Assembly: GCA_964016885.1 (NCBI GenBank)
Contig: OZ024756.1
Location: 44,206,001-44,270,000 of the forward strand
Direction: 5' to 3'
Origin: Eledone cirrhosa
Taxonomy: Eukaryota
DNA: 64,000 nucleotides
Shown here: one piece after another, positions 51,672 through 64,000 of the stretch
How positions within the stretch are numbered: the first letter of the stretch is position 1
Layout of the letters: every line of letters starts with the position of its first letter
Position numbers and translations under genes: made by a program
The notes under the pieces: generated by a model
Told to the model about the DNA's origin: nothing
The model's input: only the letters and a program-made list of their open reading frames with translations
Database searches by the model: none

Positions 51672-51718
51672 ATTTACAATATTAAATAAATGGAAAACTA
51701 TATTTATAAAACCATATT

Positions 51719-51784
51719 TATTTCATTATATATATTTCGGGGATATCATATTAACAATATGCTATGCCTTCATCAGACAAAATA
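51719..51784 (-). ncRNA. Type I hammerhead motif in the PLE 3' pseudo-LTR
   Basis: Reverse complement of 55391-55456; same sense as the ORF. Confidence 0.8.
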
Positions 51785-52153
51785 CAATATAAACAGTTTT
51801 ATAGATAAATATATTCGACATACCGTAATAAACATCAACTTCATTTGAAGAGGTTCACTCTAGCAGTGAAAATACAGAGAGAAAGAAAGAGAGAGAGAAA
51901 AGAGGGAAATAAGAAAGAAAGAAAGACAAAACGAAGAAAAGGAAGAAAAAGAAGAAAAAGAAGAAATGCATGGGACAAAATAGAGAGATGGAAAAATAGA
52001 TAAAGCGAAGAGCTTCATGTAAAGAGACCGAAAGAGATATATATATATATATAGAGAGAGAGAGAGGAAATAGAGATAGATACATATATAAATATAGATA
52101 TAGAAAAATTAGGTAGTGGGAGGTCATTTTGAGTAAGTGTATCAATGATGCAT

Positions 52154-52184
<31 letters not shown>

Positions 52185-53318
52185 GCTCAAGTATTAATGT
52201 AAGGGAGATATATAGAGAGATATAGAGAGATATATAGAGAGAAAAATTTAAAAATATTTAAAAATAGCCAGACATATTCGAGGCGTAGAAAACCCTATGT
52301 TTTAATGTATTAGTATTTATAAAACTTACACTATATTGTAAATATCAGTATTCCTGAATGAAACAAGTATTCACAATGCGTGAAAATTCATTATCTTATG
52401 TTTAGTTTTTTTTAAAAAATTCATATGTCTATGTGAATCCAACTGATTCACTCCGCAAATTCAAAGTTACCGGAAAACATTCTCAATGTGGTATAAAAAT
52501 TTGAGCGTATTATTATTCTCTACAAGATTATCTATCAAGCAGAAATAGAGAGCAGATTTCAATATACTAATCGAAAATATATATTATATTATAAGCAGAG
52601 ATAACAATAATAATGATAATAAGTAAAAATATATAAAAATATAAAAATATAGAATAGAAAACTAAAAAAGAATATTACGAAAGAATATTACATAATAAAA
52701 ATATTGCATATTAAAAATACTACGTATTAAAAATATTACGTATTAAAACTTTACATATAAAAATATTAAAAATAAACTTACATATAAAAATATTAAAAAT
52801 AAAAATAAAATAAAATAAAAAATAAAAATATAAAAATATTATAGAATACTACAATACTAAAAGAATAAAAATAAAAGTAAACCACAAAGAACAACCCTTC
52901 AAGGTTAATTGACAATATATTGCCAAGTTCACTACAAGACAAAGCCAAAAATTATCTATCAAATCACATCTAGCAAGGAATATCGCAAAAAAGATTATGA
53001 TGTCCAATAATGTCTACATATGTTCCTATATTTAATATATAAGTTTATCAAGTGTAAGGTTAATTCAGAAAATTTGGAGCATCGGCTTTTAGGGTAGCTT
53101 AATTTTTCATGAGGAATGTTTAGATAAAAATAAAAATAAAAATAAAAATAAAAATAAAAATAAAAATAAAAATAAAAATAAAAATAAAAATAAAAATAAA
53201 AATAAAAATAAATAAAATAAAATAAACAATAAAAAAAGTAAAAAGAGGGAATCAAAGATTTAGGAATCAAAAGATTTATCGGCTAGTTCTCATATAAATA
53301 TAAATCAAACTAAATATA

Positions 53319-55193
53319 CTACATTTTAAATTTAAATTTATATTTAAACGTTGAGTTTAATCTATGTTTGCAACAACTGAATAAATTTGTCCGTAGGTTA
53401 AGGGAATTTTTAGATTTTAGTATAAAGAATATCTCCTCTGCGCAGAGGTCACATGTCTCAGAGGATGAATTAAAAGGAATCCCTCTTGAGACTATATTCC
53501 AAGCCGTCGAATATCTAACGTTATCTAGCTTAAGTTGCCAGAGTACACCTGATAGTGCCGTTGAAGATTTTTTATTTGGATCTGTGAAAGAATTCTTGTG
53601 GTTATTATAGCGAAGTTTAAATTCCGTCGATGTGGAACCGACGTAGTTAAAAGAATTAGAGTCAGTATTAACATTACAATTGTATACTATATTTTTAACT
53701 AAGCAGTTGTTATTTAACGGACATTTAGATCTATCTCTACATTTACATTTGTTAACTTGTATATTATTTATGCTATTATCAGTAGGTTTTAAGTTCCTAT
53801 TATTTATTCTATTAATATTTTGTGCTAAATTTTTGGTGGATGAGTAGGTTAATTTAATTGTATGCCTATTGAAGATTGAGTGGTACCTATGTGTTCTAGG
53901 GAAGCGATTATCAAGAGCTTTGAAAAATAATTTAGCGATGTGGGTTTTAATGTTTAGTGAGAAAGGGGGGGCAAACCAAATTATGTTCCTAGTTCTATTT
54001 CTTTTTTGTCCTTTGGAATTATTGTAATGCTTTCTATTATAGTTGTTAATGTTGTTGCCATAATTAAAAAAGTTGTTCCTTTGTTTAGTATGTTTATCAT
54101 TATCTATGTACACAATCTTATCAGCATACCCTGCCCTAGCTAGTGCATCATTATAGTATTGGGCCTTTTCGTCAAAAATCTTTCTATTCGACGAGATCCT
54201 AGAGATACGTTTTTGGACTGAGTTTACTATAGTGTTTTTGACAGATCTGGGGTGGTTAGAGTTAAAGTTGACATAGTTTAAGTTTTCATTCAACTTGTGA
54301 AAAGGATAGTGGAGACATGTGTTGAGATTTAATGTTATATCTAGGAAATTGACTATTCTATGGTTGTTCTCAATTTCTATTTTAAGGTTAAAGTAATTAA
54401 AAAATTTTGTAATTTGTTTACATTTTCTATTTAGTTCAGGGTTATTATTATTAATAAGTAAAAGCATGTCATCCCTATATAAACCTCCGGTAGTACCAGG
54501 TATTTTCCTATGTAGCGAATTGATTAAAAATAAGCCCACAAGGTCAGTTACTTGAGCTGAGTCGGAAGATCCCATAGTTATGTCAAAATTGCTATCTCTA
54601 TCTGCTCTGGTCCATAATTTGTCATCAAATTCTATCAAAGTTTTCCTAGCCGATAATATAATATGCATTTCTTTGCTAGTTAGGTCCGTATGTTTGAATG
54701 CGTAATTTAGTGCCTTATTTAGTAGACTAGGGGTAATAGAAGAATAATAGTTAGCTATATCAAGTTGAATAAACCTATTATTATTGTCATATTTAATTTG
54801 CCTAAACCACTCAACAACCTCTCCAGTTCCCTTCCACAAGCTCAGGTTAGATACATAATCCAAGTTCTTAATTTGCAGTATCACCCTGTCAAGAATGTTT
54901 TTGCTTAATTTGCCCAGGTCCGATTTTGAAGGTGCGATCAATTTAACTGGCAGGTCAATCTCAAAATTCCTCTTGTGGTCCTTCATATTGATCTTCGGTT
55001 TCCTGGGCACGAAAGGTTGTGTTCTGTTCTCAATTTCCAACTGATGCATTATACAAGATGCTTCAACATTCATTTTCACAAGTTCGGTCTTATCTGCTAC
55101 CTTGTATTTTTTCCTCAGCTCTTTCAGTATGAGGCCATTATACATGTCTTTCTGCACTCCATAGAGGTTGTTGGTCTTGTCAGATTTCACCAA
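53319..55193 (-). CDS. PLE reverse transcriptase + C-terminal GIY-YIG endonuclease; frame stays open to ~55250, true N-terminus truncated
   Basis: SDKT; RT motifs LDIANYYSSI, ITMGSSDS, LYRDDML, VNFLDITL; Cys linker CKCRDRSKCPLNNNC; IVY...YVGST..FKLRYNNH; CDLC..E; no stops in 624 codons. Confidence 0.93.
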   Translation of the reverse strand: MVKSDKTNNLYGVQKDMYNGLILKELRKKYKVADKTELVKMNVEASCIMHQLEIENRTQPFVPRKPKINMKDHKRNFEIDLPVKLIAPSKSDLGKLSKNILDRVILQIKNLDYVSNLSLWKGTGEVVEWFRQIKYDNNNRFIQLDIANYYSSITPSLLNKALNYAFKHTDLTSKEMHIILSARKTLIEFDDKLWTRADRDSNFDITMGSSDSAQVTDLVGLFLINSLHRKIPGTTGGLYRDDMLLLINNNNPELNRKCKQITKFFNYFNLKIEIENNHRIVNFLDITLNLNTCLHYPFHKLNENLNYVNFNSNHPRSVKNTIVNSVQKRISRISSNRKIFDEKAQYYNDALARAGYADKIVYIDNDKHTKQRNNFFNYGNNINNYNRKHYNNSKGQKRNRTRNIIWFAPPFSLNIKTHIAKLFFKALDNRFPRTHRYHSIFNRHTIKLTYSSTKNLAQNINRINNRNLKPTDNSINNIQVNKCKCRDRSKCPLNNNCLVKNIVYNCNVNTDSNSFNYVGSTSTEFKLRYNNHKNSFTDPNKKSSTALSGVLWQLKLDNVRYSTAWNIVSRGIPFNSSSETCDLCAEEIFFILKSKNSLNLRTNLFSCCKHRLNSTFKYKFKFKM

Positions 55194-55390
55194 GATCTTC
55201 TCAGTTTTCTCTAAGCTCTCAATGTTATCCTTAATGCCTTTCAGATATTCCTTTCAGATATTCCGATTACCTCTTTTCTCTCTCTCTTTCTTTCTCTCTG
55301 TATTTTCACTGCTAGAGTGAACCTCTTCAAATGAAGTTGATGTTTATTACGGTATGTCGAATATATTTATCTATAAAACTGTTTATATTG

Positions 55391-55456
55391 TATTTTGTCT
55401 GATGAAGGCATAGCATATTGTTAATATGATATCCCCGAAATATATATAATGAAATA
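55391..55456 (+). ncRNA. Type I hammerhead motif in the inverted PLE pseudo-LTR
   Basis: Stem I TATTTTGT/ATGAAATA (2 GU pairs); CTGATGA; stem II CATATT/AATATG; GAAA; stem III ATATATAT; triplet AUA. Confidence 0.8.
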
Positions 55457-55500
55457 AATATGGTTTTATAAATATAGTTTTCCATTTATTTAATATTGTA

Positions 55501-57169
<1,669 letters not shown>

Positions 57170-57326
57170 ATTGGAATAAATGCTCTGAAATAGCGATATA
57201 TATGTGAATATAGACATAGAATATTCGAAAATATTCTGTATGTTTATAATAAACATTTTGAAGACCTAATCGCTATAGAATAATACGTCACGTATTACAA
57301 TTAGATTCTCGATAAAAGCAAGGGAA

Positions 57327-57369
57327 GTAATCTACGCGTTTCATTCTTGTTAGAAATCATCAGGACTAC
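57327..57369 (-). ncRNA. Type I hammerhead motif (308-bp family, inverted copy)
   Basis: Reverse complement of 57501-57543. Confidence 0.85.
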
Positions 57370-57500
57370 ATATCCAGTGCTTTTATCGAGAATGACACAG
57401 CTAGAGACTTATAGAATACTTAGCTGTGTACAGGAACTGGTATTCTATAAGTATTCTATAAGTCTCTAGCTGTGTCATTCTCGATAAAAGCACTGGATAT

Positions 57501-57543
57501 GTAGTCCTGATGATTTCTAACAAGAATGAAACGCGTAGATTAC
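57501..57543 (+). ncRNA. Type I hammerhead motif (308-bp family; further copies start at 57809, 58117, 58425, 58733, 59041)
   Basis: Stem I GTAGTC/GATTAC, extended by 16-bp ATTCTCGATAAAAGCA/TGCTTTTATCGAGAAT; CTGATGA; stem II TTCT/AGAA; GAAA; palindromic stem III ACGCGT; triplet GUA. Confidence 0.88.
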
Positions 57544-59219
57544 TTCCCTTGCTTTTATCGAGAATCTAATTGTAATACGTGACGTATTATTCTATAGCGA
57601 TTAGGTCTTCAAAATGTTTATTATAAACATACAGAATATTTTCGAATATTCTATGTCTATATTCACATATATATCGCTATTTCAGAGCATTTATTCCAAT
57701 TTCTAATTTCTGCCGGACCGGCAACCGCTCTTTCAAACCAGTTCCTGTACACAGCTAAGTATTCTATAAGTCTCTAGCTGTGTCATTCTCGATAAAAGCA
57801 CTGGATATGTAGTCCTGATGATTTCTAACAAGAATGAAACGCGTAGATTACTTCCCTTGCTTTTATCGAGAATCTAATTGTAATACGTGACGTATTATTC
57901 TATAGCGATTAGGTCTTCAAAATGTTTATTATAAACATACAGAATATTTTCGAATATTCTATGTCTATATTCACATATATATCGCTATTTCAGAGCATTT
58001 ATTCCAATTTCTAATTTCTGCCGGACCGGCAACCGCTCTTTCAAACCAGTTCCTGTACACAGCTAAGTATTCTATAAGTCTCTAGCTGTGTCATTCTCGA
58101 TAAAAGCACTGGATATGTAGTCCTGATGATTTCTAACAAGAATGAAACGCGTAGATTACTTCCCTTGCTTTTATCGAGAATCTAATTGTAATACGTGACG
58201 TATTATTCTATAGCGATTAGGTCTTCAAAATGTTTATTATAAACATACAGAATATTTTCGAATATTCTATGTCTATATTCACATATATATCGCTATTTCA
58301 GAGCATTTATTCCAATTTCTAATTTCTGCCGGACCGGCAACCGCTCTTTCAAACCAGTTCCTGTACACAGCTAAGTATTCTATAAGTCTCTAGCTGTGTC
58401 ATTCTCGATAAAAGCACTGGATATGTAGTCCTGATGATTTCTAACAAGAATGAAACGCGTAGATTACTTCCCTTGCTTTTATCGAGAATCTAATTGTAAT
58501 ACGTGACGTATTATTCTATAGCGATTAGGTCTTCAAAATGTTTATTATAAACATACAGAATATTTTCGAATATTCTATGTCTATATTCACATATATATCG
58601 CTATTTCAGAGCATTTATTCCAATTTCTAATTTCTGCCGGACCGGCAACCGCTCTTTCAAACCAGTTCCTGTACACAGCTAAGTATTCTATAAGTCTCTA
58701 GCTGTGTCATTCTCGATAAAAGCACTGGATATGTAGTCCTGATGATTTCTAACAAGAATGAAACGCGTAGATTACTTCCCTTGCTTTTATCGAGAATCTA
58801 ATTGTAATACGTGACGTATTATTCTATAGCGATTAGGTCTTCAAAATGTTTATTATAAACATACAGAATATTTTCGAATATTCTATGTCTATATTCACAT
58901 ATATATCGCTATTTCAGAGCATTTATTCCAATTTCTAATTTCTGCCGGACCGGCAACCGCTCTTTCAAACCAGTTCCTGTACACAGCTAAGTATTCTATA
59001 AGTCTCTAGCTGTGTCATTCTCGATAAAAGCACTGGATATGTAGTCCTGATGATTTCTAACAAGAATGAAACGCGTAGATTACTTCCCTTGCTTTTATCG
59101 AGAATCTAATTGTAATACGTGACGTATTATTCTATAGCGATTAGGTCTTCAAAATGTTTATTATAAACATACAGAATATTTTCGAATATTCTATGTCTAT
59201 ATTCATATATATATATATA

Positions 59220-59397: not shown

Positions 59398-59536
59398 CAA
59401 ATAAATATATATATATATACAAATAAATATATATATATATATATATAAATATACGTTATTCCGGGTTGAATCGGAGGTAACCACAGTAAGTAAGGTACTC
59501 AATACATAGCAGAGTATAACAGTTTTAATATAGATG

Positions 59537-59587
59537 AGATTCTACAGGACTAGAACTGTTTCATTCATTAGAAATCATCAGGAATCT
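59537..59587 (-). ncRNA. Type I hammerhead motif (family C, left arm)
   Basis: Reverse complement of 60104-60154. Confidence 0.8.
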
Positions 59588-60103
59588 GGGTATCGAAAAA
59601 TAAATATGGTATTTATAGGTCTCTACAAGTGGTAGGAGAGGGTGGGGAGTTGGATGGGTGCAGGTCATTGGTTGATAGAAAAGGGAATTCATTAAAAGCT
59701 AATTCTACAAAGCTATAGTTAATTTTTATTTTTATTTATATTTATTTATGTTTTTAGAGTAACAAAGGCAGACAAAATTCTATAAACAGGTTCCGGATGG
59801 CATACCATTCCTTGTCAATAAGTTTCTCTTAAGCTAACAGATGTCTATAAAATCAGTGGGGGGTCAGTCAAGCTCGATAGAATTAAAGAAGGGGGAGATT
59901 CTTTAAAAGCTAAAGTTGTCTGCCTTTGTTACTCTAAAAACATAAATAAATATAAATAAAAATAAAAATTAACTATAGCTTTGTAGAATTAGCTTTTAAT
60001 GAATTCCCTTTTCTATCAACCAATGACCTGCACCCATCCAACTCCCCACCCTCTCCTACCACTTGTAGAGACCTATAAATACCATATTTATTTTTCGATA
60101 CCC

Positions 60104-60154
60104 AGATTCCTGATGATTTCTAATGAATGAAACAGTTCTAGTCCTGTAGAATCT
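60104..60154 (+). ncRNA. Type I hammerhead motif (family C, right arm)
   Basis: Stem I AGATTC/GAATCT; CTGATGA; short stem II TTC/GAA; GAAA; stem III ACAG..CTGT; triplet GUA. Confidence 0.8.
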
Positions 60155-60170
60155 CATCTATATTAAAACT

Positions 60171-61043
<873 letters not shown>

Positions 61044-61563
61044 ATAACTGTCTTTATCCCATTGCAGAAACTAATTAGTTGGAGTGAAAATTTAAGTAAG
61101 AAAAAAATTTTTTTTAAATTTTTTTAAAAAAAAAATATTTTCTTATTTTACGTCCTTTATATTATTGTTCTGCATTCTCCTGCATTGAACCACCTAGGTA
61201 CTATGACATAACCTGTGTATTTGCTGGCATGGGCGTGCATCTGTGCGCTTATGTTAGTTGATATATTAAATTATCTATATTTATCTCCAAATCACTGATT
61301 TGTCGAGCAAACTTGTCAAAACCACTTCTAAAAAAATTTTTTTTGGGGTGTTAGTAGGCGTCAGTCATCTTACCATCCCATTCCTTCTAACTAGCCTCTG
61401 TGTCACGTGATTGATTCTTTAGAATCGGCCATTTGACTTGAAGCAGTGAGAATTTCGGTACATAGAATCCAGTCCTCGCAAGCTGTTCGATCTACCGAAT
61501 TATTATTATTTTTATATGAGCCGCCAGTGTCCGCGCATTGCCTGGAGACTTAACTGAGAATAG

Positions 61564-61645
61564 ACTTCCTGATGACGCAATGAATTCTCGACAGTTGGAT
61601 TACATAACTGTCTTTATCCCATTGCAGAAACTAATTAGTTGGAGT
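61564..61645 (+). ncRNA. Type I hammerhead motif with long stem II (560-bp family)
   Basis: Stem I ACTTC/GGAGT; CTGATGA; stem II GCAATG/CATTGC plus GACAGTT/AACTGTC; GAAA; palindromic stem III ACTAATTAGT; triplet GUU. Confidence 0.82.
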
Positions 61646-62123
61646 GAAAATTTAAGTAAGAAAAAAATTTTTTTTTAAATTTTTTTTAAAAAAAATATTT
61701 TCTTATTTTACGTCCTTTATATTATTGTTCTGCATTCTCCTGCATTGAACCACCTAGGTACTATGACATAACCTGTGTATTTGCTGGCATGGGCGTGCAT
61801 CTGTGCGCTTATGTTAGTTGATATATTAAATTATCTATATTTATCTCCAAATCACTGATTTGTCGAGCAAACTTGTCAAAACCACTTCTAAAAAAATTTT
61901 TTTTGGGGTGTTAGTAGGCGTCAGTCATCTTACCATCCCATTCCTTCTAACTAGCCTCTGTGTCACGTGATTGATTCTTTAGAATCGGCCATTTGACTTG
62001 AAGCAGTGAGAATTTCGGTACATAGAATCCAGTCCTCGCAAGCTGTTCGATCTACCGAATTATTATTATTTTTATATGAGCCGCCAGTGTCCGCGCATTG
62101 CCTGGAGACTTAACTGAGAATAG

Positions 62124-62205
62124 ACTTCCTGATGACGCAATGAATTCTCGACAGTTGGATTACATAACTGTCTTTATCCCATTGCAGAAACTAATTAGTT
62201 GGAGT
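62124..62205 (+). ncRNA. Type I hammerhead motif, second copy (560-bp family)
   Basis: Identical to 61564-61645. Confidence 0.82.
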
Positions 62206-62304
62206 GAAAATTTAAGTAAGAAAAAAATTTTTTTTAAATTTTTTTTAAAAAAATATTTTCTTATTTTACGTCCTTTATATATAAATATATATATATATAT
62301 AAAT

Positions 62305-62355
<51 letters not shown>

Positions 62356-62392
62356 AATATATATACATATATATATAAAAATATATATATAT

Positions 62393-62469
<77 letters not shown>

Positions 62470-62512
62470 TATATATATAGATATAAATATATATATATAG
62501 ATATAAATATAT

Positions 62513-62543
<31 letters not shown>

Positions 62544-62588
62544 AATAAATATATATATATATATAAATAAATATATATATATATATAA

Positions 62589-62745
<157 letters not shown>

Positions 62746-62764
62746 AATATATATAAATATATAT

Positions 62765-64000
62765 AATAAATAAATAACAAAGAACGCTTATAGCATATGC
62801 ATATCTTTACTTGCTAACATTGTTTCATCCACACTATAAGTGGGACTCATCAGAGCATAAAGGTTAAATTACATACCATACAAGCAATAACAAATCCAAG
62901 ACATTGAAGAATGAAGGTAATAATAGACGATAGAGGATAAGAATAAAAAGTAAATAAAAATAAAAGTGAAAATAAAAATAAAAATAAAAATAAGGGGTGC
63001 TATCTGTCACAGTTGGGCGGTGTGCTGTCAACATATAGTTACATACAAGTGATGTAATGTATTTATGTAAAGCGTATACTGTGATTTAGGCTGCACTAGT
63101 AGAAATTTAGCCTGTAACTGTGGCGGACCCGAGCCATCCTGCCGTAAGCAGTGGATACGTGGCGCATATATGTGTTGCCCTCATATTCTGTGGTTCAAGA
63201 TCTACAGGCTGACCTCTGGGAACTCTTACCCGGGGTTGTAGTCTTTCTGGCACGATCGGCCTTCCTTATATTGACGGTCGTTTTTATGATCCCGAAAGTA
63301 ACGTTTTGGCCCCGATGGCCCTCCGTAGTTACTAACGGTCTGTGTACACTCGAATCGGTCAATGGCACGTGCAGACATGAATATCTCCGTAGGATTTCAA
63401 CTGTATTTTAATACATCTCATCGTATGTATTTGTTTGAATATATTACCTGTGGTGGTGGGTCTGGTCTAATGTGGTATTTCGGTGTTTAATATTTAATAT
63501 TGTATTTAATATCGTATTTAATATCGACTTTGACCCGGGTATCCTACGCTGTGTGTGTGTGCGTGTGTGCCCGTGTATACATTTATATGTGTATGGGTGT
63601 AGGTGGTTATATGTGTCTGTGTGTATATATATAAAAAAATATATATATATATATATATGTATACCGTCTCTGCATGTGCATGTGGTGTGTATACGTGCAT
63701 ATACGTACTGAACATATTGATGTGTACAATCTTGTGATGTCCCAATGCGGTGACTTAATGGCTTTTATATTTTGTATTTTGCATGCGCTACAACTGTACC
63801 TGCTTGCTTTAACCTAACGCTTGCATGTGAATTCTTCTAACTCCTTTGATGCACCTTTCTGACCATTTGACTCCTGCCCGTGTTGAACCGGTTTGTGATT
63901 ACCCCACCGCTCGAGTGATACTGGTGACTGTGACACTTAGCGCCTTCGTGGGCCCCTGATGTTCTCAAGAAATATATATTTTTAAAAAATTGGTGTGTGA
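62765..64000 (-). mobile_element. Probable PLE-related element 3' region, runs off the window end
   Basis: Hammerhead next to (TA)n; TAAAAA repeats as in the PLE 3' UTR; CpG-retaining unique sequence; no recognisable ORF. Confidence 0.5.
62812..62857 (-). ncRNA. Type I hammerhead motif near the 3' end of a further element
   Basis: Minus strand TGCT-CTGATGA-GTCC CACT tat AGTG t GGAT-GAAAC aat GTT-AGCA. Confidence 0.8.

What the first reader, a model, noticed from the sequence alone, without database searches (positions are those of the whole stretch)
61042..62280. 560-bp hammerhead repeat with long stem II, starting inside the ribozyme
A second, unrelated array of ~2.2 copies. It begins within the stem II loop, so the first hammerhead is half present, and ends at TTTATAT merging into TA. 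Predicted cuts after 61640 and 62200 give one 560-nt monomer. Stem II has two helices around a 7x7 internal loop, and the 10-nt palindromic stem III is the longest palindromic one in the window. Permuted ends fit a circular or multimeric RNA template (inference).
Basis: partly seen in the sequence, partly recalled or inferred. Interest (0 to 1): 0.75.

Follow-up and report, generated by a model that had tools for sequence, protein, structure and literature searches.

The report
Pseudoknotted-hammerhead retrozyme with Penelope footprint
This is one young copy of an abundant non-coding repeat carrying a predicted self-cutting RNA of unusual shape, and the fixed ends and mirror-image layout of its sister copies indicate that a Penelope-type jumping-gene enzyme likely pastes it into TA repeats by copying round a probably circular RNA.

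Summary
In detail: 2.21 copies of a 560-bp non-coding unit with a type I hammerhead, between (TA)n tracts. The subfamily has 4,343 exact ribozyme-motif matches in the genome, the wider superfamily 13,135. The ends are not freely permuted. Across 47 loci the 5' ends scatter, while the 3' ends fall at two sites 118 nt apart, and 34 of 34 inverted pairs join one end of each type. A coding Penelope-like element in the same window shows the same layout (8 of 9 pairs). 62 of 83 arms exceed one unit, 178 of 178 cut-site junctions are exact, and 39 of 43 inherited variants are fixed in all units: this fits copying round one RNA circle. No coding partner was found attached; cleavage and circles are untested. 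Verdict: a non-LTR retrozyme (non-autonomous Penelope-like element), new variant.

The parts
61042..62280 (+). Whole insertion: single arm of 2.21 units, 5'-truncated at monomer position 522, ending at family site A
   Evidence: L107
61042..61080 (+). Partial first unit: 3' half of a hammerhead (stem II 3' strand, GAAA, stem III, GUU)
61081..61640 (+). Monomer 1, cut site to cut site, 560 nt, 36% GC, no ORF over 55 codons in any frame
61641..62200 (+). Monomer 2, the unit released by the two predicted cuts
62201..62280 (+). Terminal piece ending at fixed site A (monomer position about 78-82, TATAT shared with the target)
   Evidence: 43 of 81 focal arms end at site A
61556..61645 (+). First complete type I hammerhead: stem I 61564-68/61641-45, core CTGATGA 61569-75, C61576 opposite A61626, stem IIa 61577-82/61620-25, 7x7 internal loop, stem IIb 61590-96/61606-12, GAAA 61627-30, stem III palindrome 61630-39, GUU cut after 61640
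61556..61589 (+). Predicted pseudoknot: GAGAAT (61556-61, 5' of stem I) pairs with ATTCTC (61584-89, 5' strand of the stem II internal loop)
   Evidence: compensated in two sister subfamilies
62116..62205 (+). Second complete hammerhead, identical to the first
61167..61190 (+). Bulged hairpin 5 nt downstream of site A; candidate reverse-transcriptase recognition element (inferred)
61276..61307 (+). Site B (monomer position about 198-200, not used as an end at this locus) and the bulged hairpin CTCCAA..TTTGTCGAG that follows it
60170..61041 (.). (TA)n-type target, 5' side
62281..62770 (.). (TA)n-type target, 3' side

Best explanation
This is a non-coding tandem element with a predicted self-cleaving hammerhead in each 560-nt unit (a non-LTR retrozyme), likely inserted into (TA)n by the reverse transcriptase and GIY-YIG endonuclease of a Penelope-like element that copies round a probably circular monomer RNA. 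Steps: (1) an array is transcribed (inferred); (2) the hammerhead, held by a loop-loop pseudoknot and able to pair its palindromic stem III with a neighbour, cuts after GUU to give monomers (predicted; structure shown by covariation, activity untested); (3) monomers are ligated to circles (inferred); (4) the enzyme nicks (TA)n and starts DNA synthesis at an internal site, A or B, 118 nt apart (fixed ends shown; enzyme inferred); (5) usually both target strands prime, one at A and one at B, each running a variable distance, often more than one lap, and the two cDNAs are joined at their variable ends, often at short homologies or palindromes (layout shown; order of events inferred). The window copy is a one-armed product: primed at A, stopped after 2.2 laps.
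For: Fixed 3' ends and scattered 5' ends at 47 of 47 loci; 34 of 34 inverted pairs are A+B; singles 9 A and 4 B. The same two sites, 117-121 nt apart, are kept in 11 of 11 subfamily representatives (ends seen). A coding Penelope-type element in this genome gives the same layout: ends 51 and about 141 nt after its own cut, into TA, in 8 of 9 pairs; the ninth ends in a site-A piece of this retrozyme superfamily. Two start sites, both strands extended and a tail at one end only are published Penelope traits (PMC11167929; PMC8557442). 62 of 83 arms exceed one unit (max 4,066 bp); 178 of 178 read-throughs of the cut site are exact; 39 of 43 variants shared between loci are fixed in all units of a locus, 23 of them in both arms; 3 private variants are fixed too, one in 5 of 5 units over both arms. 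Ribozyme: 92.7% of 586 cells paired, 9 of 31 pairs with two-sided changes, slid controls 35-54%. Pseudoknot: the loop change GAGAA to GAAAA goes with UUCUC to UUUUY in 19 of 20 and 19 of 20 loci of two subfamilies with 476 and 79 matches.
Against: No RNA evidence of transcription, cleavage or circles. GUU is a poor site: PMC1636495 says U is excluded at that position in natural hammerheads, and it is fixed here (4,343 against 7). In the monomer-alone fold, stem III loses to an alternative pairing (-14.0 against -18.6 kcal/mol, pseudoknot not counted). Li et al. saw cleavage in 1 of 9 retrozyme dimers, and Frangieh et al. found cleavage unnecessary for insertion in vitro. 4 of 43 inherited variants are not fixed and 2 private variants sit in only some units, so some templates were mixed or copies were altered later. 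Young homogeneous multimers would also give fixed variants. No coding partner is proven: the motif shared with the window's element is not significant against shuffles (152, 49 and 14 of 300), and the chimera is a single case. The pseudoknot compensation at the central pair may be one event, pair 6 is kept in only 8 of 19 rows, and some copies of the 523-nt subfamily keep only 4 pairs.
Confidence: 0.72

Rival explanations
1. Same element and same Penelope-type insertion, but the template is an uncleaved linear multimeric transcript of an existing array; the ribozyme is slow or works only occasionally.
For: GUU site and C-A opposition may slow cleavage; uncleaved RNA was the main substrate in vitro (PMC11167929); exact junctions fit equally; only 1 of 81 arm starts lies at the cut site, as chance predicts; 4 mosaic cases.
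Against: Every subfamily-marking variant arose in one unit yet fills all units of both arms (39 of 43), which needs repeated passage through a single unit followed by re-amplification; linear copying with 5' truncation can only shorten arrays; the ribozyme shows compensatory change over 70-89% identity.
Confidence: 0.18
2. Short copies were inserted by a Penelope-like element and later amplified in place as DNA by unequal crossover, the route suggested by Li et al. 2026.
For: Proposed in bioRxiv 10.64898/2026.07.22.740005; two adjacent units share a private variant in L074.
Against: Variants are shared by both opposed arms (23 cases, and one private variant in 5 of 5 units); arrays are very young (48 singleton differences in 78,548 compared bases); arm lengths are continuous, median 867 bp.
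Confidence: 0.05
3. The units are detached pseudo-LTRs (5'-truncated ends) of a coding Penelope-like element not yet found.
For: Penelope-type ribozyme features and ends; only about 170 of several thousand insertions were seen, most with 1.5 kb of flank.
Against: Units follow each other head to tail with no ORF. Upstream of 183 arm starts in sister-subfamily and unselected loci (overlapping loci counted more than once): 129 inverted arm, 29 TA, 3 edge, 22 other with no recurring element but one unrelated repeat. The whole unit is conserved collinearly across subfamilies with frame-breaking indels.
Confidence: 0.05

Closest known systems
Metazoan non-LTR retrozymes (Cervera and de la Pena 2020, PMC7229834; Li, Clavereau and Pollet 2026, bioRxiv 10.64898/2026.07.22.740005)
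   Same: Dispersed non-coding tandem repeats, one type I hammerhead per unit, GC under 50%, no LTRs, co-occurring with Penelope-like elements; a mismatch at the base of helix II is known (axolotl Amex2, U-U).
   Different: Unit of 560 nt (150-450 in the 2020 paper; within the 51-972 range of the 2026 preprint). Watson-Crick pseudoknot to an internal loop of a long stem II instead of the usual loop 1-loop 2 contacts; GUU site. Fixed A/B ends and two-armed layout are not described in the parts read. Circles not shown here.
EN+ Penelope-like elements, insertion layout (Craig et al. 2021, PMC8557442; Frangieh et al. 2024, PMC11167929)
   Same: 5' truncation, inverted 5'-joined second copy, tail at one end only, two start sites downstream of the ribozyme cut, microsatellite targets.
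   Different: No RT or endonuclease ORF; tail about 118 nt against 30-40; both ends carry TAT(AT) that matches the target, whereas the anole enzyme started at a site not homologous to the cut DNA; arms hold up to 7.3 units.
Minimal hammerheads of metazoan Penelope-like elements (Cervera and de la Pena 2014, PMC4209133)
   Same: Extra nucleotide between A9 and G10.1, G10.1-C11.1 pair, large helix II, 4-6 bp helix I, palindromic helix III suited to dimers.
   Different: A further unpaired A before G12, a 3-bp stem III that can also close as a monomer, a second helix on stem II, and a defined pseudoknot where those motifs have a poorly defined loop 1.
Pseudoknotted hammerheads (Perreault et al. 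2011, PMC3088659)
   Same: Base pairing between the stem I and stem II peripheries; about 40% of their representatives, all three types, human C10 included.
   Different: Here the partner is an internal loop inside a closed, extended stem II, in a repeat-borne type I ribozyme; I did not see their figures or alignments, which may hold a similar case.

Membership tests
Type I hammerhead ribozyme | Core CUGANGA, GAAA and UH around three helices, stem I open | tested here: met
   (core columns 165-180 of 165-180 units nearly invariant); H17 is U, and C-A sits between core and stem II
Type I hammerhead ribozyme | Helices supported by compensatory change | tested here: met
   stem I 100% and stem IIa 99% paired, four pair types at one stem IIa position; stem III never varies (and the sister rows were selected on it)
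Type I hammerhead ribozyme | [quoted passage not shown] | tested here: met
   predicted 5-6 bp pseudoknot, 85% paired, 2 pairs with two-sided change; not probed
Type I hammerhead ribozyme | Match to an Rfam hammerhead model | tested here: not met
   none up to E = 10; the long stem II probably defeats the models (inference)
Type I hammerhead ribozyme | Self-cleavage | not testable with these tools
   needs an assay
Non-LTR retrozyme | Tandem repeats with a type I hammerhead in at least two consecutive units | tested here: met
Non-LTR retrozyme | Non-coding, GC under 50%, no LTR layout | tested here: met
   primer-binding site and polypurine tract not searched separately
Non-LTR retrozyme | Dispersed, many copies | tested here: met
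Non-LTR retrozyme | Expressed as linear and circular monomer RNA | not testable with these tools
   no RNA run was available to lay
Non-LTR retrozyme | Target-site duplication | tested here: inconclusive
   both flanks are (TA)n, so none can be read
Penelope-like element, autonomous | ORF with RT and GIY-YIG endonuclease | tested here: not met
Penelope-like element, non-autonomous | 5' truncation, tandem and inverted copies, tail at one end only, microsatellite target | tested here: met
   positive control
Penelope-like element, non-autonomous | End similarity to an autonomous partner | tested here: inconclusive
   no BLAST match to the one coding family examined; short shared motif not significant and one chimera

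The most novel reading that the evidence does not exclude
The family records rolling-circle reverse transcription of one RNA circle from both nicked strands at once, each strand started at its own hairpin-marked site 118 nt apart, driven by the coding Penelope-like family in this same window; and its ribozyme is an active hammerhead architecture missed by Rfam, in which a pseudoknot into an internal loop of stem II makes a GUU site and a C-A mismatch workable.
Probability: 0.4. Interest if true: 0.72.

Novelty: new variant of a known kind. Interest (0 to 1): 0.5.

Why it matters
Copying of retrozyme circles by Penelope-like enzymes is proposed in the papers read (PMC4209133, PMC7229834, the 2026 preprint) but not shown there. 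This family gives a defined 560-nt template, two mapped start sites, candidate recognition hairpins and an intact, very young coding element in the same genome, so the step can be rebuilt in vitro. The ribozyme adds a naturally varied structure (11 subfamily representatives, compensated pseudoknot, fixed GUU) that the Rfam scan missed, so searches may undercount such elements. It is a variant of known biology, and the two-armed layout recurs in other families.

Tried and rejected
Rfam: only microsatellite-driven microRNA noise in the window's top 150 rows and no hammerhead hit at the locus. No RNA holder listed; this says nothing about expression. Contigs of 4 runs of unrecorded kind were laid on 481 nt of the monomer: one holds the family at great depth, three other organism labels show a few low-depth pieces; contigs cannot show circles, and the one 'goes back' joint is a tandem junction. 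A genome search with monomer 80-210 returned no candidates, probably because common words are skipped. Idea that C-A is a local CpG decay: rejected, A is in 180 of 180 and C in 171 of 172 units and in all subfamilies. Run-off at the cut site: 1 of 81 starts, 0.7 expected. A distal stem I helix (ACUUA/UAAGU) has no two-sided change and competes with an upstream hairpin: not claimed. Pfam and PDB sequence searches did not name the window's coding element. Paper searches for hammerhead+GUU+cleavage site+Penelope and Neptune+microsatellite+zinc finger gave nothing; hammerhead+octopus+Penelope gave no description of such a family in its listing. Dropped before counting: 6 arms that are separate older or sister-family insertions in L093, L100, L102 and L106, and homopolymer columns. 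Caveats on the 34 pairs: L086 has a deletion near A, L090 stops 2-4 nt short of B against non-TA sequence, the + arms of L076 and L084 are interrupted, and the L096 junction holds 235 foreign bases.

Full report
1. Observation. The array at 61042-62280 has period 560 and 2.21 units that differ only in A/T runs. It lies between (TA)n tracts. Numbering the monomer from the predicted cut (window 61081 = 1), it starts at 522, in the terminal loop of stem II, and ends at about 80. Two complete type I hammerheads (cores at 61569 and 62129) and one 3' half are present. Stem II is 6 bp, a 7x7 loop and 7-8 bp; stem III is the palindrome ACTAATTAGT. Rfam does not see the ribozyme. The monomer folds better than all 100 shuffles, is 36% GC and has no ORF over 55 codons.

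2. Family. The window lies on contig C17 of a 3.0-Gb genome. A 25-mer specific to this subfamily has 4,343 exact matches; the stem III motif of the superfamily has 13,135, control 0. I fetched 47 distinct loci with about 4 kb on each side, chosen as best matches of two searches, so they lean to young copies. Copies are very young: 48 singleton differences in 78,548 compared bases. Sister subfamilies of 511-557 nt are 70-89% identical over aligned columns and collinear over the whole unit.

3. Ends. All focal arms end at one of two sites, A (about 80, GTCCTTTATAT) or B (about 198, AATTATCTATAT), almost always running into (TA)n; their 5' ends take 71 different positions among 81 arms. 34 of 47 loci are inverted pairs joined at their 5' ends, and all 34 have one A and one B arm; the 13 single arms are 9 A (this locus included) and 4 B. 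At the joints 13 of 34 overlap by 2 nt or more and 6 by 4 or more (null 18% and 2.3%), the longest in self-complementary parts of the unit; 13 carry inserted bases. Both sites persist in the sister subfamilies, 117-121 nt apart. This is the Penelope signature: 5' truncation, an inverted 5' copy and a tail at one end only (PMC8557442, passages), the tail being the stretch between two start sites of an enzyme that cuts and extends both strands (PMC11167929, parts 1-2 of 4). [quoted passage not shown] In the ninth (L270) the expected B end is replaced by a 40-nt site-A piece of this retrozyme superfamily, joined at AGT, with the rest of the tail absent from the next 160 bases: one possible template switch, a lead only.

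4. Template. Synthesis starting at position 80 reaches position 1 after 80 nt and must cross the cut site to continue. 62 of 83 arm segments exceed one unit, 34 exceed two, the longest is 4,066 bp, and 178 of 178 crossings keep the junction 20-mer exact, which argues against jumping between loose linear monomers. Of 43 cases where a variant shared between loci is covered at least twice in a locus, 39 are fixed in all units, 23 in both arms; four are mosaic (unfiltered view). A variant that arose in one unit and now fills both arms implies passage through a single unit and re-amplification during insertion. A circle explains this most simply. A young homogeneous multimer cannot be excluded for any one insertion. 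Arm starts are not enriched at the cut site (1 of 81) and only mildly inside the ribozyme (18 of 81, p = 0.014).

5. Ribozyme. In 19 rows picked by hand from 110 distinct variants, 92.7% of cells pair, 9 of 31 pairs change on both sides, and slid controls reach 35-54% (rows are related, so this is not a probability). Stem IIa reads GCAAUG/CAUUGC, GUAAGG/CCUUAC, GAAAGG/CCUUUC or GGAAUG/CAUUCC; stem I is 5 or 6 bp with matched change on both strands; stem IIb keeps pairing with different sequence. GAGAAU just 5' of stem I is complementary to AUUCUC in the internal loop. Two subfamilies with GGAAAA (476 matches) and GAAAAG (79 matches) have UUUUY in the loop in 19 of 20 and 19 of 20 loci; matched strands give 5-6 Watson-Crick pairs, strands crossed between the two groups 3-4. 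Pseudoknots of this role are common in hammerheads and needed for speed (PMC3088659, passages). The extra C after A9, large helix II, short helix I and palindromic helix III are traits of Penelope hammerheads (PMC4209133, parts 1-2 of 4); the opposing A and the GUU site are fixed here, and U at that position is described as excluded (PMC1636495, passages). Cleavage may be slow or need a dimer (self-duplex -9 kcal/mol) or the protein, which would suit a circle that must survive (inference).

6. Recognition. Each start site is followed 4-8 nt later by a small hairpin with a 2-nt bulge on its 3' side: well predicted after A (8 of 11 representatives with the same fold), weak after B (2 of 11). The coding element has CTCCAA..TTTGTCGAG after its A site, like the retrozyme's B site, but the match is not significant against shuffles. 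The partner is therefore unproven; none is attached to the arrays examined.

7. What is known. It meets the sequence-level definition of a non-LTR retrozyme (PMC7229834, parts 2-4 of 6) and fits the view that these are non-autonomous Penelope derivatives (bioRxiv 10.64898/2026.07.22.740005, parts 1-3 of 5). My 8 paper searches listed no description of this family, of a roughly 118-nt tail or of this ribozyme shape; subscription papers and supplements were not seen. Earlier AI notes of this scan report the same two-armed layout for 310-, 422-, 467- and about 490-bp families; I had reached that reading before consulting them, and none matched this sequence or held the word pseudoknot together with the others.

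8. Verdict. Real, young and abundant; a new variant of a known kind. Shown: layout, ends, fixed variants, conserved structure. Inferred: cleavage, circle, enzyme. Interest 0.5.

Noticed in passing
window 51674-55499: Coding Penelope-type element: 644-aa frame at 53319-55253 (-), hammerheads at 51776 (-) and 55399 (+, inverted 5' copy); family has at least 150 copies at 98-100% protein identity, many with 738-codon open frames; tail about 90 nt. A cysteine-rich linker precedes the endonuclease; clade not established.
   Followed up: partly
L270 (G000:C7:90924000-90933900), + arm end near 9690: Chimera: coding element's tail joined at AGT to a 40-nt site-A end of the retrozyme superfamily, then TA repeat.
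   Followed up: partly
window 57173-59205: The 308-bp hammerhead array is itself an inverted pair whose two ends differ by about 35 nt, the classical tail length.
   Followed up: no
window 5137/5378, 12692/12827, 30697, 59581/60110, 62853: Further hammerhead-like motifs, mostly as opposed pairs; several have a mismatch or wobble at the base of stem II. 59500-60170 is a short foldback directly upstream of the TA tract that holds the finding.
   Followed up: no
monomer 322-329 (window 61402-61409) and 454-466: TGTCACGT and the CC..G..TGCCTGG hairpin region are conserved in all 11 subfamily representatives; possible promoter or structural elements.
   Followed up: no
window 61094-61148: In this subfamily the first hairpin after the cut has grown a long A/T arm and a second A7T8 hairpin at monomer 250-264, which accounts for most of the 560 versus 523 length; several arm joints fall in these palindromes.
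   Followed up: partly
L084, L129, L212, L213: An unrelated repeat ending in GTAGAAACA lies next to or inside four family copies.
   Followed up: no
L188:1280-1684: One array shows a 404-nt spacing with a TA stretch between ribozymes, probably two neighbouring insertions.
   Followed up: no
window 1-2098: 53-bp satellite, 40 copies at 96%.
   Followed up: no
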